From NCBI GenBank assembly GCA_965279115.1, contig OZ257137.1:1078587-1142586 (forward strand): a stretch of DNA of 64,000 nt, given 5' to 3'. The notes beneath the pieces were generated by a model. The model saw only the letters and a program-made list of their open reading frames with translations, was not told the origin of the DNA and did no database searches. This document shows positions 42,572-54,903 of this stretch, piece after piece (position 1 is the stretch's first letter; each line of letters starts with the position of its first letter). The position numbers and the translations under genes are program-made. This DNA comes from Burkholderiales bacterium. Lineage in GTDB: Bacteria; Pseudomonadota; Gammaproteobacteria; Burkholderiales; JAEUOS01.

Positions 42572-44914
42572 TCAGGCCGTCACACCCTTGGGTACGGCGC
42601 GCAATAGCGCGTCCTTGCGCCGGGCATCCTCCTTCGCTCGCGTCGCCAGGGTATGCGCCTGTTGCGCACCCGACAGGTACTGCTTCGGCCAGCCGACGTC
42701 GCGGAAATCGTATTCCGCCGCCGCATGGAGTGTGAAGTAAGGATCGGCCAGATGTGGCCGCCCCAGTGCCACCAGGTCTGCGCGACCCGACGCCAGCAGC
42801 GTGTTGACCTGATCGGCCGTGGTGATGGCCCCGACGGCCATGGTGGCGATGCCGGCGTCATAGCGCACCTGCTCGGAGAACTGCGCCTGGTACATGCGCC
42901 CATAGACGGGTTTCGAGGCCGGATCGGTTTGTCCCGTGGACACATCGATCAGGTCGCACCCGTGCGCCTTGAAGGCGCGGGCGATTTCCACCGCATCGCC
43001 GCCGGTGGTGCCGCCGGGTATCCAGTCGGTGGCGGATATGCGCACGCTCATCGGCTTGTCGGCAGGCCATGCCGCACGCACCGCGTCCCATACCTCGAGC
43101 GGCCAGCGCAGGCGGTTGGCGAGCGACCCGCCGTATTCATCGGTGCGCTTGTTGGTTACCGGCGAAATGAAGCTGGCCAGCAGGTAGCCATGCGCCATGT
43201 GCAGTTCGAGCATGTCGAAACCGCAGGCAATCGCCCGGCGCGCGCTGGCGACAAACTCGTCGCGAACGCGATCCATGTCGGCACGCGTCATTTCGCGCGG
43301 TACCTGGTTGGAAGCAGCGTAGGGCACGGCGGAAGGCGCCAGGAGTGGCCAGTTGCCGTTGGGCAACGGGTGATCCATCTGCTCCCAGCCCACCTGGGTG
43401 GAGCCCTTGCGACCCGCATGTCCCAGCTGCAGGCAGATCTTTGCTGCGCCGCTCGCATGCACGAAATCGACCACGCGCTTCCAGCCCGCCTGCTGGTCGT
43501 CGTTGTACAGGCCCGGGCATCCCGGGGTGATGCGCGCTTCCGGCGACGGGCAGGTCATCTCCACGAACACCAGGCCAGCCCCACCCACCGCGCGTGCGCC
43601 GTAGTGCACCAGGTGCCAGTCGCCCGGCACCCCGTCCTTCGCCATGTATTGCGCCATCGGCGAAACCACGACACGGTTGCGCAAGGTCATGCCGCGCAGG
43701 TGGAAGGGCGCGAACATCGGCGGCGCCTTGAAGCCGGCCGGCAGGGTGGCGCCCTCGGTGCGTGCAACCTCGCCGTTCCACCAGTCTTCGAGTTCCGCCA
43801 CGCTGGCGGCGTCGCGCATGCGCATGTTCTCGAAGGTGATGGCCTTGGAGCGGCTCATCAGGCTGAAGTTGAACTGCGCCGGATGCATGTTCCAGAAGCG
43901 CCGCACGTTCTCGAACCACACCAGCGACACATTGGCGGCGTGCTGGATCCGGTCGGCTTCCTCATGGCGTGTGCGATCGTAATCGCGCAGGGCCGCCAGC
44001 TGGTCATCGGGATGGCGCAGTATGGAGGCGTGCAGCCCGATCGCATCTTCCAGCGCCAGCTTGGTACCGGAACCGATCGACCAGTGCGCGGTATGCGCCG
44101 CGTCGCCCAGCAGCACCACATTCTCGTGGCTCCACTTCTCGCAGCGGATGGCGGGAAAGTTGCGCCAGAACGAGCGGTTGGTCAGAAGCTTGTGGCCGCC
44201 CAGCAGGTCGGCAAACACCTCCTGGCACAACGCCGCCGTGCGTTCCTCGTCCTGGATGCCAAGGCCGGAACGCGCGAAGGTCTCGTCGGTGGTTTCCAGC
44301 ACCAGCGTGCAGCGCGGTGCGGCACCGGGGCGGGTGTACATGTAGGAATGCAGGTTCCAGATGCCGTGCTCGTTCTCGGCGAACGCATAGGTGAACCCCG
44401 GCAGTGTCATGTCGGCGCCCAGCCAGCAGAACTTGTTGCTGCGCAGGTCCACCTGGGGCGCGAAATGCGCCTTCCATGTCTCGCGCACGGCGCTGTTGAT
44501 GCCGTCGGCACCGATCACCAGATCGGCTTCACGCGCCACCTCGTCGATCGGCCGCGCCTCGCTCTGGTAGCGCACTTCGATATCGAGTTCGGCGGCGCGC
44601 TTTTGCAGGATGGCCAGCAGGGCCAGTCGCCCGAGTCCGGAGAACCCGTGCCCGCCGGAACGCATGATGGTGCCCTTGTAGTGCACGTGGATGTCGTCCC
44701 AATAGGCAAAGCTGGCGGCGATCGCCTTGTATGAAGGCTCATCGCACGCACGCAGGTTGCCGAGGGTTTCATCGGACAACACGATGCCGAAGCCGAAGGT
44801 GTCGTCGGGGCGATTGCGCTCGGTTACGCGGATCTTCGCTTCAGGAAACGACTTCTTGATCAGGATCGCGCTGTACAGGCCAGCCGGACCGCCGCCCAGG
44901 ACTTCGATCTTCAT
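42572..44914 (-). CDS. Fused FAD-dependent aromatic monooxygenase plus Old-Yellow-Enzyme-type reductase (2-aminobenzoyl-CoA monooxygenase/reductase or salicylyl-CoA 5-hydroxylase family)
   Basis: N-terminal half: MKIEVLGGGPAGLY (GxGxxG), GADG..S.VR, LLGDAAHT. C-terminal half: OYE motifs (L.NR.VVSPM, HLVHYG.RA.GGAGL, LQLGHAGRKGS, MLELHMAHGYLL). The start at 44914 has a GGAAG SD. Confidence 0.85.
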   Translation of the reverse strand: MKIEVLGGGPAGLYSAILIKKSFPEAKIRVTERNRPDDTFGFGIVLSDETLGNLRACDEPSYKAIAASFAYWDDIHVHYKGTIMRSGGHGFSGLGRLALLAILQKRAAELDIEVRYQSEARPIDEVAREADLVIGADGINSAVRETWKAHFAPQVDLRSNKFCWLGADMTLPGFTYAFAENEHGIWNLHSYMYTRPGAAPRCTLVLETTDETFARSGLGIQDEERTAALCQEVFADLLGGHKLLTNRSFWRNFPAIRCEKWSHENVVLLGDAAHTAHWSIGSGTKLALEDAIGLHASILRHPDDQLAALRDYDRTRHEEADRIQHAANVSLVWFENVRRFWNMHPAQFNFSLMSRSKAITFENMRMRDAASVAELEDWWNGEVARTEGATLPAGFKAPPMFAPFHLRGMTLRNRVVVSPMAQYMAKDGVPGDWHLVHYGARAVGGAGLVFVEMTCPSPEARITPGCPGLYNDDQQAGWKRVVDFVHASGAAKICLQLGHAGRKGSTQVGWEQMDHPLPNGNWPLLAPSAVPYAASNQVPREMTRADMDRVRDEFVASARRAIACGFDMLELHMAHGYLLASFISPVTNKRTDEYGGSLANRLRWPLEVWDAVRAAWPADKPMSVRISATDWIPGGTTGGDAVEIARAFKAHGCDLIDVSTGQTDPASKPVYGRMYQAQFSEQVRYDAGIATMAVGAITTADQVNTLLASGRADLVALGRPHLADPYFTLHAAAEYDFRDVGWPKQYLSGAQQAHTLATRAKEDARRKDALLRAVPKGVTA

Positions 44915-44927
44915 TTGGGTTCTTCCT

Positions 44928-46541
44928 TCAATTGCGGGCGAGAAGCTGGCGCACCAGTTCACCCTTGATGATCTTGCGGGTCGGCGTAAGGGGCATCGCC
45001 GTCACGATTTCCAGACGCTCCGGCCACTTGACCTTGCCGACGTCTTCGGACGCCAGAAAGTCCCGCATCTCCTCGAGCGAGAATGCGTGTCCCGGGCGCG
45101 TGACCACAAAGCAGCAGGCCTTCTCGCCTAGCACCGCGTCCGGGATTGGCGCGACAGCCACCTCGGCCACCGCGGGATGTTTGAGCAACATCGCCTCGAC
45201 ATCCAGCGGATTGAACTTGACGCCGCCACGGTTGATGATTTCCTTGACGCGCCCGGTAAGTCGCACGTTGCCTGCGTTGTCGATGACAGCAAGGTCGCCG
45301 GTGCGGAACCAGCCGGCCTCGGCGAAGGCATCCCGCGTGGCTTGCGGGTTTTCGAGGTAGCCGGCAAAGAGCGACGGGCCGCGCATCTGCAGTTCGCCTT
45401 CAATGCCCGGGGAAAGTTCATTCCCGCCGGCATCGACCACCCGCAATTCGGTACCGGGCGAGGCGCGCCCGGTGGATTCCAGGCGTACCGGTTCAGGGTC
45501 GCCGGGCCGGGTGAAGGCGCCAGCCTGCAGCTCGGTCATGCCCCACAACTGCATCACTTTGCCGCCGCCCAGTCGTGGTTCCAGCGCCCGGCCAAGCGCG
45601 GGTGGCACCGCGCTGCCGGAGATCTGCACGAACTTCAGACAGGTCATGTCCAGGCCATCGAACAGCCCGCCGTTGAGGCAGGCGGCGATATGCGCCGGCG
45701 CGGTGAAGGCTGCAGTAGGGCGCATGATGCGGATCGCATCGGCCAGGCCCGGCGGCGAGAACGCCGGCAGGAGCGCAATGGTCGCGCCCACGGCCAGCGC
45801 CATGTTCACCGTGAAAAGACCATACAAGTGGGTAAACGGCGCGGCCGACAGCATCACATCGTCCGGACCCAGTGCCAGTTCGGCCGCTGACAGGCGCGCA
45901 TTGGCGAGAAAGTCCTGATAGGCGTGCGGCACCCCCTTGGGTGACGACGTGGTTCCCGAGGTGTAGAGCAGCAGGAACGGATCCTCGCCCGAGAGCCTCG
46001 GCAGACCGGTCGCTGCCTTGGTGTCAGGCAATTCACGCCAGTCGCGTGCTTGTCGCGGCACCTGGTCGCCTACTGCAATGACTTCGCGCAATGCCGGCAG
46101 TCCGCTACGCAAGCCCAGAAAAGTGTCTGCGGCGGCATAGTCCTTGGTCGCATCCAGGCACACCACGGCAACCGCGCCGCTGTGCCGCAGCAGGCCTTCG
46201 AGGTCAGCGGCGCGATATGGCATGTGCAGGGTTTGCATCACCGCACCGAGCGATGCAATCGCGAGATAGGCCAGCACGAACTGTGGCGTGTTGGGCAACT
46301 GCACTGCGACCACGTCACCGCGCCGGATGCCCAACGCCGACAAACCCTGCGCCACAGCCAGCGCTTCATCCCGCAGCCGCCGGTATGACCACACGGCATC
46401 GCCAAGCCGCAAGGCCGCATGATCCGGGCGCTCGCGCGCATTTCGCTCCAGCCAGTCGGACAAGGTTTCGTCGTTCCAGTAACCGTTGGCGCGATAGGCG
46501 GCACCGCGCACCGGGTCGAAGGTGATGGAAAGGCGGGTCAT
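44928..46541 (-). CDS. Aryl-acid-type AMP ligase (EntE/DhbE-like aryl-CoA ligase)
   Basis: N-terminal YRANGYWNDETLSDWL pattern, as in 2,3-dihydroxybenzoate/salicylate-AMP ligases. LLYTSGTTSSPKG, WGMTE, TGDLA. 537 aa. Confidence 0.8.
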   Translation of the reverse strand: MTRLSITFDPVRGAAYRANGYWNDETLSDWLERNARERPDHAALRLGDAVWSYRRLRDEALAVAQGLSALGIRRGDVVAVQLPNTPQFVLAYLAIASLGAVMQTLHMPYRAADLEGLLRHSGAVAVVCLDATKDYAAADTFLGLRSGLPALREVIAVGDQVPRQARDWRELPDTKAATGLPRLSGEDPFLLLYTSGTTSSPKGVPHAYQDFLANARLSAAELALGPDDVMLSAAPFTHLYGLFTVNMALAVGATIALLPAFSPPGLADAIRIMRPTAAFTAPAHIAACLNGGLFDGLDMTCLKFVQISGSAVPPALGRALEPRLGGGKVMQLWGMTELQAGAFTRPGDPEPVRLESTGRASPGTELRVVDAGGNELSPGIEGELQMRGPSLFAGYLENPQATRDAFAEAGWFRTGDLAVIDNAGNVRLTGRVKEIINRGGVKFNPLDVEAMLLKHPAVAEVAVAPIPDAVLGEKACCFVVTRPGHAFSLEEMRDFLASEDVGKVKWPERLEIVTAMPLTPTRKIIKGELVRQLLARN

Positions 46542-47355: not shown

Positions 47356-47769
47356 ATGAAAATCCTGCAACCACCCGGTTGGGCCACACCACGCGGTTAC
47401 GCCAACGGCATAGCCGCGCGCGGCACGCTCGTCATGATCGGCGGCCAGGTCGGCTGGGACCCGGTCAAGAGCGGTGCCGGCGGCAAGGGCGTATGGCCGG
47501 CGCTGGACTTCGCCGGACAAACCCGCCAGGCATTGCAGAACATCGTCGCCATCCTGGCCGAGGCCGGCGGCAAGCCGGAGCATCTGGTGCGCCTGACCTG
47601 GTATGTGCTCGACCGTGACGAATACGTGGCCGCATGGCCCGCCGTGGGCGCGGCCTACAAGGAAATCATCGGGCGGCACTTCCCTGCAATGTCGGCCTTT
47701 GGCGTCACTTCGCTGGTGGAGCCGGAAGCAAGACTGGAAATCGAAGCTACCGCAGTAGTTCCCGATTGA
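47356..47769 (+). CDS. RidA/YjgF family enamine-imine deaminase-like protein
   Basis: 137 aa. PRGYANG...GQVG...Q.RQAL.N...L...G...V.L..YV...PA....V..L....RLEIEA pattern. Confidence 0.85.
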   Translation: MKILQPPGWATPRGYANGIAARGTLVMIGGQVGWDPVKSGAGGKGVWPALDFAGQTRQALQNIVAILAEAGGKPEHLVRLTWYVLDRDEYVAAWPAVGAAYKEIIGRHFPAMSAFGVTSLVEPEARLEIEATAVVPD

Positions 47770-47786
47770 ACCTGATACATCAAACC

Positions 47787-48773
47787 ATGCACATTCCCCA
47801 CAGCCTTCGCGCCCTGCTCCTGGCAGGCGTCACCGCCCTTGCCAGCGTGGCGCAACCGGCATTCGCGCAGGGCTATCCCGCCAAGCCAGTCCGCATCGTC
47901 GTGCCCTACCCGGCCGGCGGCGGCATCGACATCATGTCGCGGCAGATCGCGCAGCGGCTTGCGCAGAAGTTCAACCAATCGGTGGTGGTTGAGAACAAGC
48001 CGGGCGCCGGCACCCTCGTCGCGGCCGAAACGGTCGCACGCGCGGCACCGGATGGATACACCCTGCTGGTGACCACCGATGCCACCATGACCATCAACCC
48101 GCATCTGTACGGCAAGCTGCCCTACGACCCGGTCAAGGACTTCGTGCCGGTCACGCAATTGGTGCTCCTGAACCAGTTGCTGGTGGCCAACGCCAACCTG
48201 CCGGCAAGCAACCTCAAGGAATTGCTGGCCTATGCCAAGGCCAATCCGGGCAAACTGAACTACGCTTCATACGGTGTGGGCAGCCAGCCGCACCTGGCCA
48301 TGGAAATCCTCAAGTCCCAGGCCGGGGTGGACATCGTCCACGTACCGTACAAGGGCATCCCGCAGGCCGTGCCTGCGGCGATCGCGGGCGAGGTCCAGCT
48401 CACCTTTTCGGGCGCGGCTTCAACCCAGGCACACATCAAGGCAGGCAAGCTGAAGGCCATCGCCATCGGCGGGACGAGGCGCCTTTCGATCATGCCGGAT
48501 GTCCCGACCTTCGCCGAATCCGGCTTTCCCGACGTGCCGGCCAACGCATGGTTCGGCCTGTTCACCCCCACCGGCACCCCGCGCGAGATCGTCATGACGC
48601 TGCACGGCGAAGTCACGCGCATGCTCAAGGAGCCGGATTACCTGCAGAAGGAAATCGTGGCCAAGGGTTACGAGCTGGTTGCCGGCACGCCCGAGGATTT
48701 CGCCAGCTTCCTCACGGCCGACAGCACACGCAACGCCCGCGCCGTGAAAATCTCCGGTGCCCGCGCCGACTAG
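47787..48773 (+). CDS. Tripartite tricarboxylate transporter substrate-binding protein (Bug/TctC family)
   Basis: Signal peptide followed by the hallmark YPAKPVRIVVPYPAGGGIDIMSR. Confidence 0.9.
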   Translation: MHIPHSLRALLLAGVTALASVAQPAFAQGYPAKPVRIVVPYPAGGGIDIMSRQIAQRLAQKFNQSVVVENKPGAGTLVAAETVARAAPDGYTLLVTTDATMTINPHLYGKLPYDPVKDFVPVTQLVLLNQLLVANANLPASNLKELLAYAKANPGKLNYASYGVGSQPHLAMEILKSQAGVDIVHVPYKGIPQAVPAAIAGEVQLTFSGAASTQAHIKAGKLKAIAIGGTRRLSIMPDVPTFAESGFPDVPANAWFGLFTPTGTPREIVMTLHGEVTRMLKEPDYLQKEIVAKGYELVAGTPEDFASFLTADSTRNARAVKISGARAD

Positions 48774-48795: not shown

Positions 48796-50613
48796 ATGCC
48801 GGATAAAGCGACCGACAGACGCCCCTTTGCCGCACTCTGGTTCGCGGTTCTGGCCATGGCCGTCGGCATTCCTTGGGCGCTGAATGCCTTCGAACTGGTC
48901 GAGGCCAAGCTCCTTGACCTCGAGTTTCAGACAATCCGCAAGATCGGCCCCCGTGAGATCGCCCGCGACGTAGTAGTGGTCGGCATCGACGTAGAGGACC
49001 TGCGCCGTTTCAACGACCCGAAGGATTTCTGGCACCCCCACTACGGCCGCTTCCTCTCGGCGGTCGCGGATGCCAAGCCCGCCGTGGTGGGAATGGATAT
49101 CGTCTTTCCGGAGCGTTCCTACCAGCGACTGGTGCCTGGAATAGACCAGAGCTTGATGAAGGGGCTGCTTGCATTGCGCGCATCTGCGCCCCTGGTGATC
49201 GCCCGCACAGTTGACGATTTCAACGCCTTTCGGCAGATTTTCCCGCCCTACCTCGCCGTTGCCGGCGCAGACGCTGTCGGCAGCGCACTGGTGTGCCGGG
49301 ACGGGGACGAGGTGATTCGCCGCTTCGACGAATACCTGTGTGACAGCGCGCGCCGCGACCCAATTCCGAGCCTGGCCGGGCTGATGGCGGGCCATCTGGG
49401 CGTCAGGGAATCATGGCGGGGCATCATCGACTACGGCATGGGTCCGCCGATCAGCTATATCCCGTTTCGCGACGTTATCTACTGGTCCGACCGTGGCGAT
49501 CCACGACTGCAGACGGCGCTCGCCGGTAAGCCCGTGCTGCTCGGCTTTATCCTGCCCTTCGAGGACCGGAAAACCGTTCCGGTCGACCTGGCTGCCCTCG
49601 AACCGGGCAATCATTTGGTGCCCGGCGTTCTGGTGCACGCACAGATCCTGCGCAACATGCTCAACGGCGGCCTGGTACGGCAGCCACCGGCGCTGCTCAT
49701 TGCACTGCTCATCCTGGCAGGCGCCGGTTTCTGGCTGCTTCCATCCGCCCCCGGATCGCGCCTAGCCTTGCTCGGATTCCTGATCGCATTGCCGGCTGGC
49801 GCCCTACTGGCGCTCAAGTCCCAGCACACCTTCGTTCCGGTCCTCGCACCCATGCTGGCCGCCTTGCTGGGCGCAGGCGCGCGCTATGTCCATGCAGCCA
49901 CCGCGCAGGCACGGGAGCGCGCCTTGTTGCGAAGTTCTTTCGGAGGCTATGTCAGCCCGCAGGTGATGAGTGCGATTCTTGCTGGCTCGGTCCATCCCGG
50001 GCTCGAAGGCGAGCGTCGCAATGTGGCCGTGCTGTTTTCCGACATCCGCGACTTCACACGCCGCAGTGAGGGCATGACACCGGAAAGCCTGATCGACATG
50101 CTGAACCAGTACTTCACCGAGATGACCGACGTCGTGCATGCGAACGACGGCACGGTGGACAAGTTCATCGGCGACGGCATGATGGCCTTTTTCGGCGCAC
50201 CACAGCAACTCGACAATCCTTCGCAGAATGCCGTTGACGCCGCGCTGCAGATGCTTGAACGGCTGGAAACACTTAACCGGAAGCTCGTCGAGCAAGGCTT
50301 CGAGCCGCTGCGGATCGGCATCGGCATCCATGTGGGCGAGGTCATCATCGGGCACGTCGGTTCGGCAAGCCGACACGAGTACACCGCCATTGGCGACGCC
50401 GTCAACACCGCATCGCGTGTGGAAGGCCTGACCAAGGATGCGGGATGCCCGCTCCTGGTCACCCGGCCGGTTTTCGCTGCGCTTGCCAGGCGCACGGGAT
50501 TTGCCGACCTTGGCAGCAAGGAAATTCGCGGGCGCTCGGCGATACAGATATACGGCCATTCTGGCAATATCACTGCCAATTCCGCGGTCGGCGCAGCACC
50601 GCCAGGGAGATAA
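48796..50613 (+). CDS. CHASE2 extracytoplasmic sensor fused to a class III adenylate/guanylate cyclase
   Basis: One TM, a roughly 280-aa periplasmic region with CHASE2-like motifs (VVVGIDVEDL, FWHPHYGRF, VVGMDIVFPE), three TM segments, then a cyclase domain (VAVLFSDIRDFT, KFIGDGMMAFFG, IGIHVGEVIIGHVG, YTAIGDAVNTASR). The Lys...Thr specificity pair suggests ATP. Confidence 0.88.
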   Translation: MPDKATDRRPFAALWFAVLAMAVGIPWALNAFELVEAKLLDLEFQTIRKIGPREIARDVVVVGIDVEDLRRFNDPKDFWHPHYGRFLSAVADAKPAVVGMDIVFPERSYQRLVPGIDQSLMKGLLALRASAPLVIARTVDDFNAFRQIFPPYLAVAGADAVGSALVCRDGDEVIRRFDEYLCDSARRDPIPSLAGLMAGHLGVRESWRGIIDYGMGPPISYIPFRDVIYWSDRGDPRLQTALAGKPVLLGFILPFEDRKTVPVDLAALEPGNHLVPGVLVHAQILRNMLNGGLVRQPPALLIALLILAGAGFWLLPSAPGSRLALLGFLIALPAGALLALKSQHTFVPVLAPMLAALLGAGARYVHAATAQARERALLRSSFGGYVSPQVMSAILAGSVHPGLEGERRNVAVLFSDIRDFTRRSEGMTPESLIDMLNQYFTEMTDVVHANDGTVDKFIGDGMMAFFGAPQQLDNPSQNAVDAALQMLERLETLNRKLVEQGFEPLRIGIGIHVGEVIIGHVGSASRHEYTAIGDAVNTASRVEGLTKDAGCPLLVTRPVFAALARRTGFADLGSKEIRGRSAIQIYGHSGNITANSAVGAAPPGR

Positions 50614-50618
50614 TCCGC

Positions 50619-52238
50619 ATGATGGACAAGCGTATTTCGAAGGCCCCCGGCCGGCAGTTGCCGCAGCGCCGCCAATTCCTGAAGGTCGGCTTAGGCTGCG
50701 CCAGCATATTCGCCTCTGGACCGTTGGCACAGGTTTGGGCACAAACCCCGCAAGGAGAGCAACTCCTCAAGTTGCCCAAGGTGGCGCTGGTGATCGGCAA
50801 CAGCCGCTACCCGCAGTCGCCGCTGAAAAATCCGGTCAACGACGCACGCGCCTTTGGCGAGGCGCTGCTCAAGCTGGGCTTTGATGTCAGCGTGAAGCTC
50901 GACGCCGACCGTGCTGCCATGAATGCAGCCATCGCCGCATACGTGGACAAGCTTACCAAGCAAAAGTGCGTTGGCCTCTTCTACTACGCCGGCCATGGCA
51001 TGCAACTGGCCTGGAAGAACTACCTGTTGCCGGTGGACGCCAGCGTCGCAGCCGTAAAGGACGTGCAGTCACAGGGCGTCGAACTCAACGCCTTGATTGC
51101 CGGCCTGACACGCGCATCCAACCCGCTCAACCTGATTATCCTCGACGCCTGCCGCGACAACCCCTTTGGGAGTGTTGCGCAACTGGAGCAAAAGGGCTTG
51201 AGCCAGATGGATGCCCCGCTCGGCACTCTGCTGGCCTACGCCACCTCGCCAGGGAATACCGCGAGCGACGGCGAGGGCGCCAACGGGCTTTACACCGAGA
51301 ACCTGCTAAAGGAAATCCAGGTCAAGGAAGCCAAGGTAGAGGACGTATTCAAGCGCGTGCGACTGAGCGTCCGGCGCGCTTCCAGGGGGTTGCAAATCCC
51401 CTGGGAAAGCACTTCGCTGGAAGATGACTTCTACTTCCTGCCGCCCGGCATACTTGCCAAGCCGGGTGATGACGAACGCGCCCGGCAGTTCGCCGAGGAA
51501 CTCAAGTTGTGGGATTCGATCCAGGAGGCGGCTTCGCCAGCCCCGTTCGAGTCCTACCTCAGGAGGTTCCCCAGCGGCCAATTTTCCGAACTCGCGCAAC
51601 TACAACTCGAACGCCTGCTGGCCAAGGAAGGGGAAAAACCGATCCTGATCGCGCCGGCGATCGGCAACCCCTACACCGCTGGTACTTCGCGCGCGGACAC
51701 CCGGTTTCTGATCGGCGACACCTGGACCTGGCGAGTATTCGACCGCCATACCGGCGCCGAGAAGGGCACGCGAACGCATACAGTCACCGAAATTACCGAC
51801 AACGAGGTGCGCTTCAACAAGGGGAGGATCATCTCCGACCTGCTCGGCAACATCAAGCAATCCGGTGACGGCCGCCGCTACACCGGCAATCAGTTCCAGC
51901 CGCTCGAATTCGCCGTGGGAAAACAATGGACCACGCGCTTCCAGGTGGTCAACCCGGCAGGCAACAACGTCGAATCCGAATACACCTTCCGCATCACGAC
52001 AAAAGAAAAGGTCAACGTTCCTGCCGGCACCTTCGATTGCTTCCGCATCGAAGGCAAGGGAATCAGCCGCGCCCGATTCGGTTCCGGCAGCACAACGCTG
52101 ATGAACAACTTCTGGATGGCACCGGATGCTTGCCGGCGCGTCATAAAGCAGGAAATCAACCGCACGTTCTACGGGCCACGCGGCCTGAACCAGCTTGAAG
52201 ACGACCGGACTGAATTGGTGTCGTTCAAGCAAGGCTAG
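50619..52238 (+). CDS. Tat-signal caspase-fold (peptidase C14) protein, paralog 1, with a C-terminal beta-rich domain of unknown function
   Basis: The start lies 5 nt after the cyclase stop, with a GGGAGA SD. QRRQFLKVG twin-arginine motif and VWA-Q cleavage site. Catalytic His in YYAGHG and Cys in ILDACRDNPF. Confidence 0.85.
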   Translation: MMDKRISKAPGRQLPQRRQFLKVGLGCASIFASGPLAQVWAQTPQGEQLLKLPKVALVIGNSRYPQSPLKNPVNDARAFGEALLKLGFDVSVKLDADRAAMNAAIAAYVDKLTKQKCVGLFYYAGHGMQLAWKNYLLPVDASVAAVKDVQSQGVELNALIAGLTRASNPLNLIILDACRDNPFGSVAQLEQKGLSQMDAPLGTLLAYATSPGNTASDGEGANGLYTENLLKEIQVKEAKVEDVFKRVRLSVRRASRGLQIPWESTSLEDDFYFLPPGILAKPGDDERARQFAEELKLWDSIQEAASPAPFESYLRRFPSGQFSELAQLQLERLLAKEGEKPILIAPAIGNPYTAGTSRADTRFLIGDTWTWRVFDRHTGAEKGTRTHTVTEITDNEVRFNKGRIISDLLGNIKQSGDGRRYTGNQFQPLEFAVGKQWTTRFQVVNPAGNNVESEYTFRITTKEKVNVPAGTFDCFRIEGKGISRARFGSGSTTLMNNFWMAPDACRRVIKQEINRTFYGPRGLNQLEDDRTELVSFKQG

Positions 52239-52303
52239 CAGCAGGCGTTCGGCAATGGCAATGAAGCATTCGCAAGCATGGCCAAGCGGCTGTCACATTG
52301 CGC

Positions 52304-52378
52304 CCGGCGATACAGGTATGCAACCATTCTGGCAGGGACACCACGAATTCCATGGCTGCCGCTACACCGCAAGGGTGA
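52304..52378 (+). pseudogene. Relic of the cyclase C-terminal tail carried along by the duplication
   Basis: Translates PAIQVCNHSGRDTTNSMAAATPQG*. This aligns with the cyclase C-terminus SAIQIYGHSGNITANSAVGAAPPGR*. No upstream cyclase domain is present. Confidence 0.55.
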
Positions 52379-52389
52379 TAATCTGAACC

Positions 52390-54009
52390 ATGGGCAAACG
52401 CTATTCGAAGGCACCGGACCGGCAGTTTCAACAGCGCCGGCAAATCATCAAGGTCGGCCTGGCCGGCGCGAGCGTATTTGCCTCCGGACCGTTGGCCCAT
52501 GTATGGGCGCAAACACCGCAAGGCGAACAGCTCCTCAAGCTGCCCAAGGTGGCGCTGGTGATCGGCAACAGCCGCTACCCGCAGTCGCCCCTGAGAAATC
52601 CGGTCAACGACGCGCGCGCGTTTGGCGAGTCATTGCTGAAGCTGGGCTTTGATGTCAACGTGAAGCTTGATGCCGACCGCGCCGCCATGAATGCCGCTAT
52701 CGCAGCCTATGTGGACAGGCTTGCCAGGCAAAAGTGCGTGGGGCTGTTCTACTACGCCGGGCACGGCATGCAGCTGGCCTGGAAGAACTACCTGTTGCCG
52801 GTGGATGCCAGCGTCGCCGCGGTAAAGGACGTGCAGACACAGGGCGTCGAACTAAACGCCCTGATCGCCGGCTTGACCCGCGCGTCCAACCCGCTCAACC
52901 TGGTCATACTCGACGCGTGCCGCGACAACCCCTTTGGCAGCGTTGCGCAGCTGGAGCAAAAGGGCTTGAGCCAGATGGATGCTCCGCTCGGCACCCTGCT
53001 TGCCTACGCCACCTCCCCTGGCAACACTGCCAGCGACGGGGAAGGCGCCAACGGGCTTTACACCGAGAACCTGCTAAAGGAAATCCAGGTCAAGGAAGCC
53101 AAGGTAGAGGACGTATTCAAGCGCGTGCGACTGAGCGTCCGGCGCGCTTCCAGGGGGTTGCAAATCCCCTGGGAAAGCACTTCGCTTGAAGATGACTTTT
53201 ACTTCCTGCCGCCAGGCATGATTGCCAAACCTGGCGATGACGAAAAGGCACGTCTGTTTGCCGAGGAACTCAAGATCTGGGAATCGATACAGGAGGCCGC
53301 GTCGTCTGCGCCCTTCGAGTCCTACCTCAGAAAGTTTCCCAGTGGCCAGTTCGCCGAGCTTGCGCAATTGCAACTTGAGCGCCTCTTGGCCAAGGAAGGA
53401 GAAAAGCCGATCCAGATCGCCCCCGCCAACGGCAACCCCTACACTGCGGGCAGCGCACGCGCGGATACAAGTTACGTGATTGGTGATTCCTGGACTTGGC
53501 GCGTATTCGATCGGGAAAGCGGTGCCGACAAGGGCCGCCGATCCAGAACCGTCACCGAAATCACCGAGCATGAGGTGCGCTACAACAAGGGACTCCCGGT
53601 CACGGATCTGCTTGGAAATCTGAAACGGACCGCCGACGGCCGGCGCTTCACGGGCGGGCAGTTCCTGCCGCTCGAATTCATGGTCGGCAAACAGTGGACG
53701 ACGCAATTCAGGTCATTCAACAGCAGCATGAACGTGGAATTCAATTCCGAGTACACCTTCCGCATCGTTGCCAGGGAAAAACTCACCGTCACGGCCGGCA
53801 CTTTTGATTGCTTTCGTGTCGAGGGAAAAGGGATAAGTCGCCCGATTCACGGATCGGGAAGCACCACGCTGCTATACAACTATTGGATGGATCCCGCGGT
53901 CTGCAGGGGCGTGATCAAGCAGGAAATAAACCGCACCTTCTTTGGTCGATTCGGCATGAATGTCATCGAAAATGATCGATACGAACTAATTTCCTACAGG
54001 CAAGGTTGA
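52390..54009 (+). CDS. Tat-signal caspase-fold (peptidase C14) protein, paralog 2
   Basis: QRRQIIKVG twin-arginine motif. The YYAGHG / ILDACRDNPF dyad context is the same as in paralog 1. The C-terminal domain is divergent. Confidence 0.85.
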   Translation: MGKRYSKAPDRQFQQRRQIIKVGLAGASVFASGPLAHVWAQTPQGEQLLKLPKVALVIGNSRYPQSPLRNPVNDARAFGESLLKLGFDVNVKLDADRAAMNAAIAAYVDRLARQKCVGLFYYAGHGMQLAWKNYLLPVDASVAAVKDVQTQGVELNALIAGLTRASNPLNLVILDACRDNPFGSVAQLEQKGLSQMDAPLGTLLAYATSPGNTASDGEGANGLYTENLLKEIQVKEAKVEDVFKRVRLSVRRASRGLQIPWESTSLEDDFYFLPPGMIAKPGDDEKARLFAEELKIWESIQEAASSAPFESYLRKFPSGQFAELAQLQLERLLAKEGEKPIQIAPANGNPYTAGSARADTSYVIGDSWTWRVFDRESGADKGRRSRTVTEITEHEVRYNKGLPVTDLLGNLKRTADGRRFTGGQFLPLEFMVGKQWTTQFRSFNSSMNVEFNSEYTFRIVAREKLTVTAGTFDCFRVEGKGISRPIHGSGSTTLLYNYWMDPAVCRGVIKQEINRTFFGRFGMNVIENDRYELISYRQG

Positions 54010-54048
54010 CCGGGCGGCGTTCCGGCAACCGGTACAGGAGTTCAAAAA

Positions 54049-54903
54049 ATTAGATTCCATGCACCCATCCTGATATGCGCGCTCGCCGCCCTGTCGCTTT
54101 CACCTGCCGCCGCGGGCGAACCGGTGGCGATGGCGACGGACGTCAAAGGCACTGTGACCCTCGTCGGCGACAAGCCCGTACCCATCGGCATGCTGCACTA
54201 CTTCGAAGCACCGACAACCGTTCGCCTTGCTCCCGGCGCAACGCTTGCAGTGACCTACTTCGCCAACCCGGTCCAGTACAGCTTCAAGGGACCGAGCGTG
54301 CTCACAATCGAGGCGATCGTGCCAAAGGCATCCGAGGGTGCCGCGCCTGAAATCCGGCGTGTCGGACCGGAACGATCCATCGACGGCGGCCTGACCAAGG
54401 ATCAATGGCGGCGACTGCAACAGGCGACCGTGGTGATGCGCTCGGCGCGCCTTGCTTTCGCGGTAATCTCGCCGAACCAGACTTCCATTCTGTCCCCGCG
54501 CGCGGAGCTGTCCTGGACACCCGCAGCGGGCGCAAGGAGCTATCGCCTCACGTTGAGTGACGATCAGGATAACCCTATTGCAACCTGGCCCAGTACCTCG
54601 ACGACAAGCACGATTCCCGAAACGGCGAGACTTGCAGCGGGAAAATCCTTTCGCTGGAAAGTTGAAGCCGTGGATGTAGCGCCGCCGCTGGTCGCAAGCG
54701 GTGTTTTTTCCACCGCGACAGCGGAAGTGGCAGAACGCATGACACGACAGCGTCCTGCCGACGGCGGGGATCTTGCCGCCAACGTTTTCTACGCAACGCT
54801 CCTCGATATCGAAGGGTTTGCCAGCGACGCCAAAGCAGAGTGGCGGCGCCTCGCACGCCAGTTTCCCGATGAGCAGGCGCTCCGGCGCCGCGCGGCGCCC
54901 TGA
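54049..54903 (+). CDS. Secreted protein (beta-sandwich/FN3-like middle region, helical C-terminus); proposed ATT start
   Basis: The track ORF starts at GTG 54124, but the frame is open from 54010 and encodes (I)RFHAPILICALAALSLSPAAA-GEP, a canonical Sec signal. AGGAG (54036-54040) lies 8 nt before ATT 54049. No ATG, GTG or TTG is available upstream in this frame. Confidence 0.6.
   Translation: MRFHAPILICALAALSLSPAAAGEPVAMATDVKGTVTLVGDKPVPIGMLHYFEAPTTVRLAPGATLAVTYFANPVQYSFKGPSVLTIEAIVPKASEGAAPEIRRVGPERSIDGGLTKDQWRRLQQATVVMRSARLAFAVISPNQTSILSPRAELSWTPAAGARSYRLTLSDDQDNPIATWPSTSTTSTIPETARLAAGKSFRWKVEAVDVAPPLVASGVFSTATAEVAERMTRQRPADGGDLAANVFYATLLDIEGFASDAKAEWRRLARQFPDEQALRRRAAP

What the first reader, a model, noticed from the sequence alone, without database searches (positions are those of the whole stretch)
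48796..54903. CHASE2-sensor cyclase tightly coupled to two Tat-exported caspase-fold proteins and a secreted partner: candidate periplasmic protease to cNMP signalling module
Directly seen. The cyclase stop (50611-50613) is 5 nt from the start of a caspase-fold gene that has its own SD. A second paralog and a Sec-signal protein follow on the same strand with short gaps. Both caspase-fold proteins carry textbook twin-arginine signals (QRRQFLK and QRRQIIK, with a VWA-Q cleavage site) and an intact His (YYAGHG) / Cys (ILDACRDNPF) dyad. They would therefore be folded, probably active C14 proteases delivered to the periplasm, which is where the CHASE2 domain of the cyclase sits. CHASE2 has no established ligand. 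Each caspase carries a roughly 200-aa beta-rich C-terminal domain that I cannot assign to a family. Inference: the proteases, or the products they generate from the downstream secreted protein or from envelope or foreign substrates, may form the input to CHASE2, with cAMP as the output (the specificity pair looks like Lys/Thr). Alternatively this is a conflict or self-destruction module kept outside the cytoplasm. I do not know of an experimentally described CHASE2-cyclase/periplasmic-caspase system. I vaguely recall CHASE2 genes neighbouring CHAT/caspase and FecR-like genes in cyanobacteria, but I cannot verify that here.
Basis: partly seen in the sequence, partly recalled or inferred. Interest (0 to 1): 0.85.

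Follow-up and report, generated by a model that had tools for sequence, protein, structure and literature searches.

The report
Exported caspases linked to CHASE2 cyclase
A membrane sensor enzyme that makes cAMP sits in one gene cluster with two exported caspase-type proteases and a secreted partner protein. The same trio recurs in many soil and freshwater bacteria, which gives a testable lead on what the uncharacterised CHASE2 sensor domain detects.

Summary
The genes are a CHASE2 class III adenylate cyclase (48796-50613), two 82%-identical Tat-signal caspases with intact His/Cys (50619-52238 and 52390-54009), and a Sec-signal protein (54049-54903).

- **Main partner.** The cyclase's near-obligate partner is the downstream 284-aa protein, present in 42 of 49 related cyclase loci. 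It forms a new family: two Ig-like domains plus a TPR-like tail. It is not FecR and shows only faint DUF928 similarity.
- **Third component.** Caspase-domain proteins are frequent but interchangeable. They include the C-terminal caspase of two-partner-secretion exoproteins, caspase-DUF3108-like, caspase-MORN and caspase-FGE-sulfatase. All of the non-TpsA ones whose N-termini were read carry export signals, and nearly all keep the catalytic dyad.
- **This caspase family.** The window's own caspase family is mostly standalone and was recruited to cyclase loci several times.

No paper in the searchable library describes this module. My best model is a periplasmic protease-plus-adaptor input to CHASE2 with cAMP as output. 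That mechanism is inferred, not shown. I rate it a new variant of a known kind, interest about 0.7.

The parts
48796..50613 (+). Receptor adenylate cyclase. Layout: N-terminal TM helix, periplasmic CHASE2 domain (about 48868-49737), three TM helices, then a cytoplasmic class III cyclase domain (about 50017-50553) with a Lys/Thr specificity pair.
   Evidence: Pfam CHASE2 E 4.9e-24 and Guanylate_cyc E 9e-27. D416, D460, K456, N537 and R541 are invariant in alignment A4. TM segments were read directly from the translation. The 100%-identical protein P0322 comes from a 6.9-Mb NCBI contig.
50619..52238 (+). caspA, an exported caspase-fold (C14) protease. Parts: Tat-type signal (residues 1-41, RRQFLK...VWA|Q), caspase domain (residues 54-272, His126/Cys178), a short helical TPR-like linker, and a DUF3108-like beta domain (residues about 346-539).
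   Evidence: Peptidase_C14 E 3e-38, DUF3108_like E 3e-4 and DUF3108 E 4e-3. Family alignment A1. A C-terminal profile hits PDB 4FVS (E 3.5e-5) and 3FZX (E 0.014). The start lies 5 nt after the cyclase stop, with an AGGGAG SD.
52239..52389 (+). Intergenic spacer between caspA and caspB. Its last ~100 nt or so are a degenerate copy of the 3' end of the cyclase gene, which marks an in-situ tandem duplication of the unit (cyclase tail + caspase).
   Evidence: DNA alignment of 50440-50700 against 52210-52470. No terminator-like site lies in this spacer.
52390..54009 (+). caspB, a paralog of caspA with the same architecture (RRQIIK Tat-type signal, His/Cys dyad). Its caspase domain is 96% identical to caspA, but its DUF3108-like domain is only 66% identical.
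   Evidence: Nei-Gojobori estimates: caspase domain dS 0.43, dN/dS 0.04; C-terminal domain dS 1.7, dN/dS 0.14.
54049..54903 (+). Secreted partner protein ('down', 284 aa). Parts: Sec signal peptide, two Ig/FN3-like beta-sandwich domains joined by a helix, and a C-terminal TPR-like helical pair. The joining helix carries the conserved motif GGLxxDQWRRLQQATVVMR (DQWRRLQQA and VM invariant in 50 family members). The probable start is ATT at 54049, 8 nt after an AGGAG.
   Evidence: ATT aligns with ATG in L170. Homologs carry full signal peptides. Conservation of the motif. AF2 model pLDDT 85. Foldseek returns only generic Ig/FN3 matches. No Pfam or NCBIfam family reaches threshold. dN/dS 0.19 against L170.

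Best explanation
This is a three-component envelope-sensing module.

**Components**
- The inner-membrane cyclase exposes its CHASE2 domain to the periplasm and makes cAMP in the cytoplasm.
- The secreted Ig-Ig-TPR protein is its dedicated periplasmic co-receptor or adaptor.
- The two exported caspase-type proteases act on the input side. Their variable C-terminal DUF3108-like domains would recognise a periplasmic or envelope cue.

**Proposed steps (inferred)**
- Their probably Arg/Lys-directed caspase domains would then cleave either the adaptor or incoming proteins.
- A candidate cleavage site in the adaptor is its conserved, exposed RR/MR-containing linker.
- Cleavage would change the state of CHASE2 and so the rate of cAMP synthesis.

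**What is shown**
- Domain content and export signals.
- Conserved catalytic residues.
- The conserved, multi-architecture gene linkage.

**What is inferred**
- Physical interaction between the parts.
- The direction of information flow.
- The cleavage targets.
For: **Cyclase-adaptor coupling**
- From the adaptor side, all 8 independent contexts examined have a CHASE2 cyclase directly upstream, often overlapping by a few bases.
- From the CHASE2 side, 42 of 49 related cyclases with at least 900 nt of downstream sequence have the adaptor adjacent.

**Caspase linkage in several independent forms**
- TpsB + TpsA with a C-terminal Peptidase_C14, ending less than 65 nt before the cyclase. This holds in 14 of 17 loci of the clade closest to the window's cyclase.
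- Caspase-DUF3108-like upstream of the cyclase (L010, L120, L128-L130, L137).
- Sec-signal caspase after one or two adaptor copies, with MORN-like repeats read in L061 (L061, L062, L076, L145, L152, L153, L157).
- A divergently arranged trio (L172).
- Caspase-FGE-sulfatase with DUF4384 and a CHASE2 cyclase in a deltaproteobacterial genome.

**State of the caspases**
- All correctly framed linked caspases except L125 keep GH(G/A) and a catalytic Cys motif; L169 is frameshifted.
- All soluble ones read carry signal peptides.
- CHASE2-linked members are scattered among standalone ones in the family tree, which implies repeated recruitment.

**Within the window**
- Gaps are 5 nt and 39 nt, with no terminator-like site in the spacers.
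- All four genes are under purifying selection.

**Precedent**
- The only studied CHASE2 cyclases, in S. meliloti, respond to a protein signal through an accessory envelope protein (PMC7529298, PMC13001267).
Against: - The caspase-DUF3108-like family is usually not next to any CHASE2 gene: 1 of about 52 full-length members, and relatives at 66-70% identity are standalone. These proteases therefore work without the cyclase.
- Only 6 of 9 adaptor-bearing cyclase loci with at least 3 kb on both sides show a caspase within 6 kb.
- A 66%-identical cyclase (L173) has the adaptor but no caspase on its 6-kb contig.
- No interaction, cleavage or cAMP measurement exists.
- The CHASE2 model has no informative structural match.
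- No cAMP receptor or phosphodiesterase was found next to the module in the window.
- The adaptor's ATT start could mean low expression.
Confidence: 0.5

Rival explanations
1. The proteases are the output arm rather than the input. CHASE2 plus the adaptor would sense an independent envelope or environmental cue. The resulting cAMP, through a Crp-type regulator, would control expression of the operon. The exported caspases would then act as effectors on external, periplasmic or surface proteins, for example in adhesin processing, protein scavenging or competitor attack. Alternatively, the cyclase could hold or release the protease, as LapD does with LapG.
For: The caspases are co-transcription candidates downstream of the cyclase. 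The family functions standalone elsewhere. In the closest cyclase clade the caspase is the C-terminus of a giant two-partner-secretion exoprotein, which is typical of effectors or adhesins. One relative has a cNMP-binding Crp-like regulator 3 kb away.
Against: The cyclase is an active enzyme whose sensor and the proteases share one compartment, which fits input coupling better. Gene order varies (caspase before, between or after), so simple downstream regulation is not the conserved feature. No Crp-like gene lies near the module in the window.
Confidence: 0.25
2. This is a conflict or abortive-infection-type module. The cyclase would make a nucleotide alarm signal on envelope attack, such as by phage or toxin. 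The caspases would be destructive effectors kept outside the cytoplasm.
For: The cyclase domain matches PADLOC PycC (Pycsar cyclase) models, E 8e-30. The caspases match a PADLOC 'caspase' model (E 4e-15) and weakly match the NCBIfam EACC1-associated caspase model, at 47 bits against a 140-bit cut-off. Caspase-CHASE2 fusions occur in Aravind-type conflict systems (PMC8195603). GC content dips at 52-54 kb.
Against: The PycC hits reflect generic class III cyclase similarity. No cNMP-binding effector is adjacent. The flanks are metabolic genes, and the immediate flanks (upstream TctC, a same-strand downstream gene) are the same in L170. All genes are under purifying selection with no sign of rapid turnover. 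The Lys/Thr pair predicts cAMP, not the pyrimidine cNMPs of Pycsar.
Confidence: 0.08
3. The neighbours are coincidental. A standalone periplasmic caspase gene happened to insert between a cyclase and its partner gene and then duplicated, without functional coupling.
For: The family is standalone in nearly all sampled loci. In most relatives the cyclase and adaptor overlap directly, so the window's order is derived. The adaptor lost its ATG start.
Against: At least five different caspase architectures and gene orders are linked to CHASE2 cyclases, including in Deltaproteobacteria. Within this one family, CHASE2-linked members arise on at least five separate branches. L170 has an ATGA overlap between cyclase and caspase.
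Confidence: 0.07

Closest known systems
Sinorhizobium meliloti CHASE2 adenylate cyclases CyaD1/CyaD2/CyaK with the outer-membrane protein NsrA (and the FecR-domain protein SMc02177 encoded next to the cyaD1 region)
   Same: CHASE2 plus class III cyclase architecture with cAMP output. Perception needs an accessory envelope protein encoded nearby. The signal is proteinaceous (ribosomal protein uL2) and protease-sensitive (PMC7529298, PMC13001267, PMC5498481).
   Different: No caspase gene is described there. The accessory proteins belong to other families: a beta-barrel OMP and a FecR-domain protein. The window's partner failed the FecR test.
CHASE2 receptor plus secreted-partner operons: the Burkholderia/Pseudomonas LysM-FecR protein with a CHASE2 histidine kinase ('BiofilmReg', PA4035/PA4036 type), and the Campylobacterota cluster of CHASE2 cyclase + FecR-domain protein + TPR protein + phosphodiesterase
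   Same: A CHASE2 receptor is co-encoded with a signal-peptide-bearing partner protein, so CHASE2 probably works with a periplasmic co-factor (PMC5192318, PMC9239204).
   Different: The partner families differ. In Burkholderia the output is a kinase. No protease is present. These operons are known from genome comparison only, plus one regulator mutant.
Cyanobacterial orthocaspase-CHASE2 fusion proteins (Trichodesmium) and EACC2-caspase-CHASE2 proteins; the Nostoc CHASE2 + DUF928 + WD40 cluster
   Same: The same two domain families, caspase and CHASE2, are evolutionarily linked. A DUF928 protein lies next to CHASE2, and the window's partner family gives sub-threshold DUF928 hits (PMC3501461, PMC2853523, PMC8195603, PMC5587647).
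   Different: In the fusions the caspase is predicted to be cytoplasmic and on the output side of CHASE2. Here the caspases are separate exported proteins in the same compartment as CHASE2, and the output is a cyclase.
LapD-LapG-LapA (Pseudomonas fluorescens); named from my own knowledge, not checked with the tools
   Same: An inner-membrane nucleotide-signalling protein, a periplasmic cysteine protease and a giant surface adhesin act together. The closest cyclase relatives here are likewise linked to giant two-partner-secretion exoproteins.
   Different: LapD is a c-di-GMP receptor that signals inside-out. LapG is not caspase-fold. There is no sequence relationship to this module. This is a works-like analogy only.
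Pycsar anti-phage system (PycC cyclase + effector)
   Same: The class III-type cyclase domain matches PycC models.
   Different: There is no cNMP-binding effector. The cyclase has a CHASE2 sensor and a Lys/Thr (adenine) specificity pair. The genomic context is metabolic.

Membership tests
CHASE2 sensor domain (PF05226) | Sequence match above Pfam's gathering score | tested here: met
   85.7 bits against a 26.3-bit cut-off, residues 25-314.
CHASE2 sensor domain (PF05226) | Extracytoplasmic position: one TM helix before the domain and three after it | tested here: met
   Hydrophobic segments at residues 11-29 and three between about 297 and 375, read from the translation. No topology predictor was available.
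Class III adenylate cyclase | Catalytic domain with two metal-binding Asp, transition-state Asn and Arg, and a Lys + Asp/Thr adenine-specifying pair | tested here: met
   Guanylate_cyc 94 bits. D416, D460, K456, N537 and R541 are invariant in A4. Thr in EYTAIGD aligns with the Asp1018 position of mammalian cyclase by motif (plus my own knowledge). Enzyme product not testable here.
Peptidase C14 (caspase/metacaspase/orthocaspase) | Caspase-domain match and a His-Cys catalytic dyad | tested here: met
   132 bits against a 21.4-bit cut-off for both paralogs. H126 and C178 are invariant in 18 relatives, and the dyad motifs are kept in all linked caspases except L125 and the frameshifted L169.
Peptidase C14 (caspase/metacaspase/orthocaspase) | Proteolytic activity and P1 specificity | not testable with these tools
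   Arg/Lys specificity is inferred only from the conserved NDA and SDG motifs, by analogy with metacaspases (my own knowledge).
Tat-exported protein | S/T-R-R-x-F-L-K motif followed by a moderately hydrophobic region and an AxA-type cleavage site | tested here: met
   QRRQFLK and QRRQIIK, then VWA|Q. RR is at least 90% conserved in the family. CHASE2-linked relatives L128, L137 and L010 have Sec-like signals instead.
Tat-exported protein | Export depends on TatABC | not testable with these tools
   Needs a tatC mutant or an RR-to-KK substitution.
DUF3108 / DUF3108-like (PF11306, PF21347) | Sequence match to the family model | tested here: inconclusive
   caspA scores 21 bits against a 27-bit cut-off, and caspB has no hit. 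Many homologs carry precomputed PF21347 or PF11306. The C-terminal profile hits PDB 4FVS (E 3.5e-5) and 3FZX (E 0.014), which I take to be DUF3108-like structures (not checked). I judge membership likely.
FecR domain (PF04773) for the downstream protein | Sequence or fold match to FecR | tested here: not met
   No FecR hit in any of 41 members, even at E up to 1. No FecR or PupR structure appears among the sequence or Foldseek PDB matches.
DUF928 (PF06051) for the downstream protein | Sequence match to the family model | tested here: inconclusive
   4 of 41 members at best E 0.007. A distant relative, P0184, scores E 5e-4 and 20 bits against a 26-bit cut-off over profile positions 32-166. All hits are sub-threshold.
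Pycsar defence system | PycC cyclase with an adjacent effector carrying a cNMP-binding domain | tested here: not met
   PycC models match the cyclase domain. The neighbouring genes are caspases, the Ig-TPR protein and metabolic genes.
Two-partner secretion (relatives only) | TpsB (POTRA_2 + ShlB) plus TpsA with an N-terminal TPS domain | tested here: not met
   Absent from the window. Present in relatives L100 and L083, where the TpsA ends in the caspase domain.

The most novel reading that the evidence does not exclude
CHASE2 receptors in general may be read-outs of extracytoplasmic proteolysis. An exported caspase-fold protease, whose variable domain senses a cue, together with a small beta-sandwich adaptor (this Ig-Ig-TPR family, DUF928, DUF4384 or FecR-like proteins), would form the long-sought input of CHASE2. 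In the two-partner-secretion versions, the state of a giant surface filament would be relayed through its periplasmic C-terminal caspase domain to cAMP synthesis. That would amount to a contact- or surface-sensing pathway.
Probability: 0.3. Interest if true: 0.85.

Novelty: new variant of a known kind. Interest (0 to 1): 0.7.

Why it matters
The literature read here says the cues CHASE2 recognises are unknown. The only studied cases, in S. meliloti, point to a protein signal acting through unexplained accessory proteins. A conserved genetic link between CHASE2 cyclases, a dedicated secreted adaptor and exported caspase-type proteases gives a concrete hypothesis for how the domain is activated. 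It could be tested by reconstitution in an E. coli cya mutant.

It would also assign a signalling role, rather than a cell-death role, to a large and unstudied group of periplasmic bacterial caspase homologs. It would connect two-partner-secretion exoproteins to second-messenger signalling.

Tried and rejected
- **CHASE2 as a pseudo-caspase that pairs with the exported caspases.** The AF2 model of the periplasmic domain (pLDDT 73) gave no PDB match better than E 3.5e-3 and TM 0.2, and no caspase-fold hit. Not supported.
- **Downstream protein as FecR-like.** Rejected.
- **Membership of a catalogued defence system.** Only generic PycC and caspase model hits.
- **Promoter and terminator scan.** Counts were no higher than in shuffles, so it says nothing about operon borders.
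- **Source organism.** Looking up the genomic record of the window's own protein failed, and cluster look-up gave no name. The organism was not identified beyond 'NCBI contig of 6.9 Mb'.
- **Garnerone et al. 2018 (NsrA).** The paper is not held, so NsrA's domain content could not be checked.
- **Crp-like regulator in the window.** A tblastn search with the L081 Crp-like protein found nothing.
Full report
**Observation**

The four genes exist as described.

- ORF 48796-50613 encodes a 605-aa protein with a CHASE2 domain (residues 25-314) and a class III cyclase domain (408-586).
- It has one hydrophobic segment before CHASE2 and three after it. This places CHASE2 outside the cytoplasm and the cyclase inside (read).
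- In an alignment with six related cyclases, both metal-binding Asp, the adenine-specifying Lys456, and Asn537 and Arg541 are invariant. The partner position is Thr in the EYTAIGD motif, which predicts an adenylate cyclase (plus established knowledge of class III cyclases).
- The stop TAA lies at 50611-50613. An AGGGAG follows, then ATG at 50619.
- caspA (50619-52238) and caspB (52390-54009) are each 539 aa. Both are Peptidase_C14 at E about 3e-38 and are 82% identical to each other.
- They carry RRQFLK / RRQIIK twin-arginine motifs, a VWA|Q cleavage site, and the YYAGHG / LDACRDNPF dyad.
- RR, His126 and Cys178 are conserved in the family.

The fourth gene reads in frame from 54049 and encodes a clear Sec signal peptide. 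The codon at 54049 is ATT, and no ATG, GTG or TTG occurs before 54124. In the close relative L170 the aligned codon is ATG. All homologs have a full signal peptide. ATT at 54049, 8 nt after an AGGAG, is therefore the likely start. The database copy of this protein (P0121, 257 aa) starts later and loses the signal peptide.

**The unassigned domains**

*Caspase C-terminal domain.* Residues 346-539 of the caspases give sub-threshold DUF3108 and DUF3108-like hits. Many homologs carry those Pfam families. A profile of this region matches two structural-genomics proteins, 4FVS (E 3.5e-5) and 3FZX (E 0.014). The domain is therefore DUF3108-like, and its function is still unknown.

*Downstream protein.*
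- It has no Pfam or NCBIfam family above threshold.
- Its AlphaFold model has pLDDT 85.
- The model shows two Ig/FN3-like sandwiches, a connecting helix and a C-terminal TPR-like helical pair.
- The connecting helix carries the conserved motif GGLxxDQWRRLQQATVVMR, whose DQWRRLQQA and VM positions are invariant in 50 family members.
- Foldseek finds only generic Ig/FN3 proteins.
- It is not FecR-like by sequence or fold.
- A few members and distant relatives give weak, sub-threshold DUF928 hits over the second Ig domain and the tail.

*CHASE2 domain.* A model of the periplasmic domain (pLDDT 73) has no meaningful PDB match.

**Gene neighbourhoods, from three directions**

*(a) Starting from the caspase family.*
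- The family is large, with thousands of hits.
- Among about 52 full-length members in reference genomes, only L010 lies next to a CHASE2 cyclase.
- Relatives at 66-70% identity are standalone.
- More distant caspases in L061, L062 and L076 showed the order cyclase, then one or two copies of the downstream protein, then caspase.

*(b) Starting from the downstream protein.*
- Every context examined has a CHASE2 cyclase directly upstream, often overlapping.
- Every one also has a caspase-domain gene beside it.

*(c) Starting from the CHASE2 domain (80 metagenome loci).*
- Of 49 cyclases with at least 900 nt downstream, 42 have the partner gene adjacent.
- A caspase domain lies within 6 kb in 29 of the 80 loci, many of which are short contigs.
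- In the clade closest to the window's cyclase (56-65% identity), a caspase domain ends less than 65 nt upstream in 14 of 17 loci.

**The linked caspases come in several architectures**

| Architecture | Example loci |
|---|---|
| C-terminal domain of giant two-partner-secretion exoproteins (TpsB + TpsA with TPS, YDG, MBG and a C-terminal Peptidase_C14) | L100, L083 |
| Caspase-DUF3108-like upstream of the cyclase | L010, L120, L128-L130, L137 |
| Sec-signal caspase after the partner gene (MORN-like repeats read in L061) | L061, L145, L152, L153, L157 |
| Divergently arranged trio | L172 |
| Caspase-FGE-sulfatase, then FMN reductase, then DUF4384, then CHASE2 cyclase (deltaproteobacterial genome) | L075 |

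- All correctly framed linked caspases except L125 keep the His and Cys motifs; L169 is frameshifted.
- All soluble ones read carry a signal peptide.
- In a neighbour-joining tree of the caspase-DUF3108-like family, CHASE2-linked members fall on at least five separate branches among standalone members.
- At 66% cyclase identity (L173) the partner is present, but no caspase lies on the 6-kb contig.

**History of the window's arrangement**

- L170 has a 91%-identical cyclase and a 92%-identical caspase. Its order is TctC, cyclase, one caspase (ATGA overlap), the partner protein, then one further same-strand gene.
- The window has two caspases.
- The 150-nt spacer before caspB contains a degenerate copy of the cyclase 3' end. 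The duplication therefore happened in place.
- Between caspA and caspB, the caspase domain has dS 0.43, while the DUF3108-like domain has dS 1.7.
- This points to an old duplication with later homogenisation of the catalytic half, or to a swapped C-terminal half.
- All regions have dN/dS of 0.04-0.17.
- The cyclase and the partner are also under purifying selection.
- The flanks are metabolic genes. No Crp-like gene was found in the window with the one query tried.

**Interpretation**

The data show a conserved functional association with a fixed core and a variable third component.

- The core is the CHASE2 cyclase plus the Ig-Ig-TPR protein.
- The third component is an exported, catalytically intact caspase domain attached to variable non-catalytic domains. 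It is recurrent but replaceable.

CHASE2, the partner and the caspases share the periplasm, and the cyclase is an active enzyme. The most economical reading is therefore outside-in signalling. The variable domains would bind a cue, the protease would act on the adaptor, on CHASE2 or on an incoming protein, and cAMP output would change.

In the studied S. meliloti CHASE2 cyclases the signal is a protein and an accessory envelope protein is required (PMC7529298, PMC13001267). That fits this reading but does not prove it.

The rival readings are listed with their evidence:
- The proteases are effectors, or partners held in the LapG manner.
- The module is a conflict system.
- The adjacency is chance.

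Chance adjacency is the weakest, given the number of independent architectures.

**Comparison with the literature**

- Papers mention caspase-CHASE2 fusions with a cytoplasmic caspase (PMC3501461, PMC2853523, PMC8195603).
- CHASE2 receptors with FecR-domain partners are described (PMC5192318, PMC9239204, PMC5498481).
- One Nostoc cluster of CHASE2 + DUF928 + WD40 is reported (PMC5587647).
- Searches for CHASE2 with caspase, CHAT, FecR or DUF928, for two-partner secretion with caspase, and for periplasmic orthocaspases found no description of the module seen here.
- The search library lacks most subscription journals, so absence is not proof.

**Verdict**

The link is real and conserved, but the mechanism is untested. 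Several details were corrected: the core partner, the domain assignments, and the mostly standalone nature of this caspase family.
- Novelty: a new variant of a known kind, namely a receptor cyclase with accessory periplasmic proteins. Interest is about 0.7.

Noticed in passing
window 54049-54051 (and 54130): The partner gene appears to start with ATT, which aligns with ATG in relative L170. The database version of this protein (P0121, 257 aa) starts downstream and lacks the signal peptide, so it is probably mis-annotated.
   Followed up: yes
window 52239-52389: The spacer before caspB carries a degenerate copy of roughly the last 100 nt of the cyclase gene. This is the footprint of an in-place tandem duplication. 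Relative L170 has only one caspase.
   Followed up: yes
window 50619-52238 vs 52390-54009: Divergence between the two paralogs is mosaic: synonymous divergence is 0.43 in the caspase domain but 1.7 in the C-terminal domain. This suggests gene conversion of the catalytic half or exchange of the C-terminal half.
   Followed up: partly
window 52001-54000: G+C is 0.585 here, against about 0.62-0.66 in the flanks.
   Followed up: no
window 47634-48773: A TctC/Bug-family solute-binding gene ends 22 nt before the cyclase start. The same gene precedes the cyclase in L170 with a 19-nt gap. TctC genes also lie near the module in L081 and L084. This may be chance, since I recall this family being much expanded in these bacteria (not checked).
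   Followed up: no
window 42572-46541 (- strand): A 796-aa fusion of an FAD-monooxygenase domain and an Old-Yellow-Enzyme-type FMN oxidoreductase overlaps an AMP-dependent ligase gene. The pair resembles 2-aminobenzoyl-CoA monooxygenase/reductase with its CoA ligase. That resemblance is from memory; only the Pfam domains were checked.
   Followed up: partly
L100 707-11092; L083 1-7296: Complete operons of TpsB, then TpsA ending in a caspase domain, then CHASE2 cyclase, then the partner protein. Two-partner-secretion exoproteins with a C-terminal caspase domain do not seem to be described in the searchable literature.
   Followed up: partly
L075 9872-14881 (also L066, L079): A deltaproteobacterial cluster of caspase-FGE-sulfatase, FMN reductase, a DUF4384 protein and a CHASE2 cyclase. 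This is the same theme with a different small accessory protein.
   Followed up: partly
L087 6059-9626; L089 38-3498: Standalone members of the caspase-DUF3108-like family follow an LpqE-like gene and a CCP_MauG di-haem peroxidase gene in two different contigs.
   Followed up: no
L109, L114, L115, L161: A second, more distant CHASE2-like cyclase gene lies convergently a few kb from the first. In L109 and L161 it has its own weak partner-like hit.
   Followed up: no
partner protein residues about 135-225 (window 54451-54723): A profile of the partner family matches thousands of giant proteins through its second Ig-like domain, with up to 35 repeats per protein. The domain is therefore a widespread repeat type (Ig_Rha78A_N-like).
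   Followed up: partly
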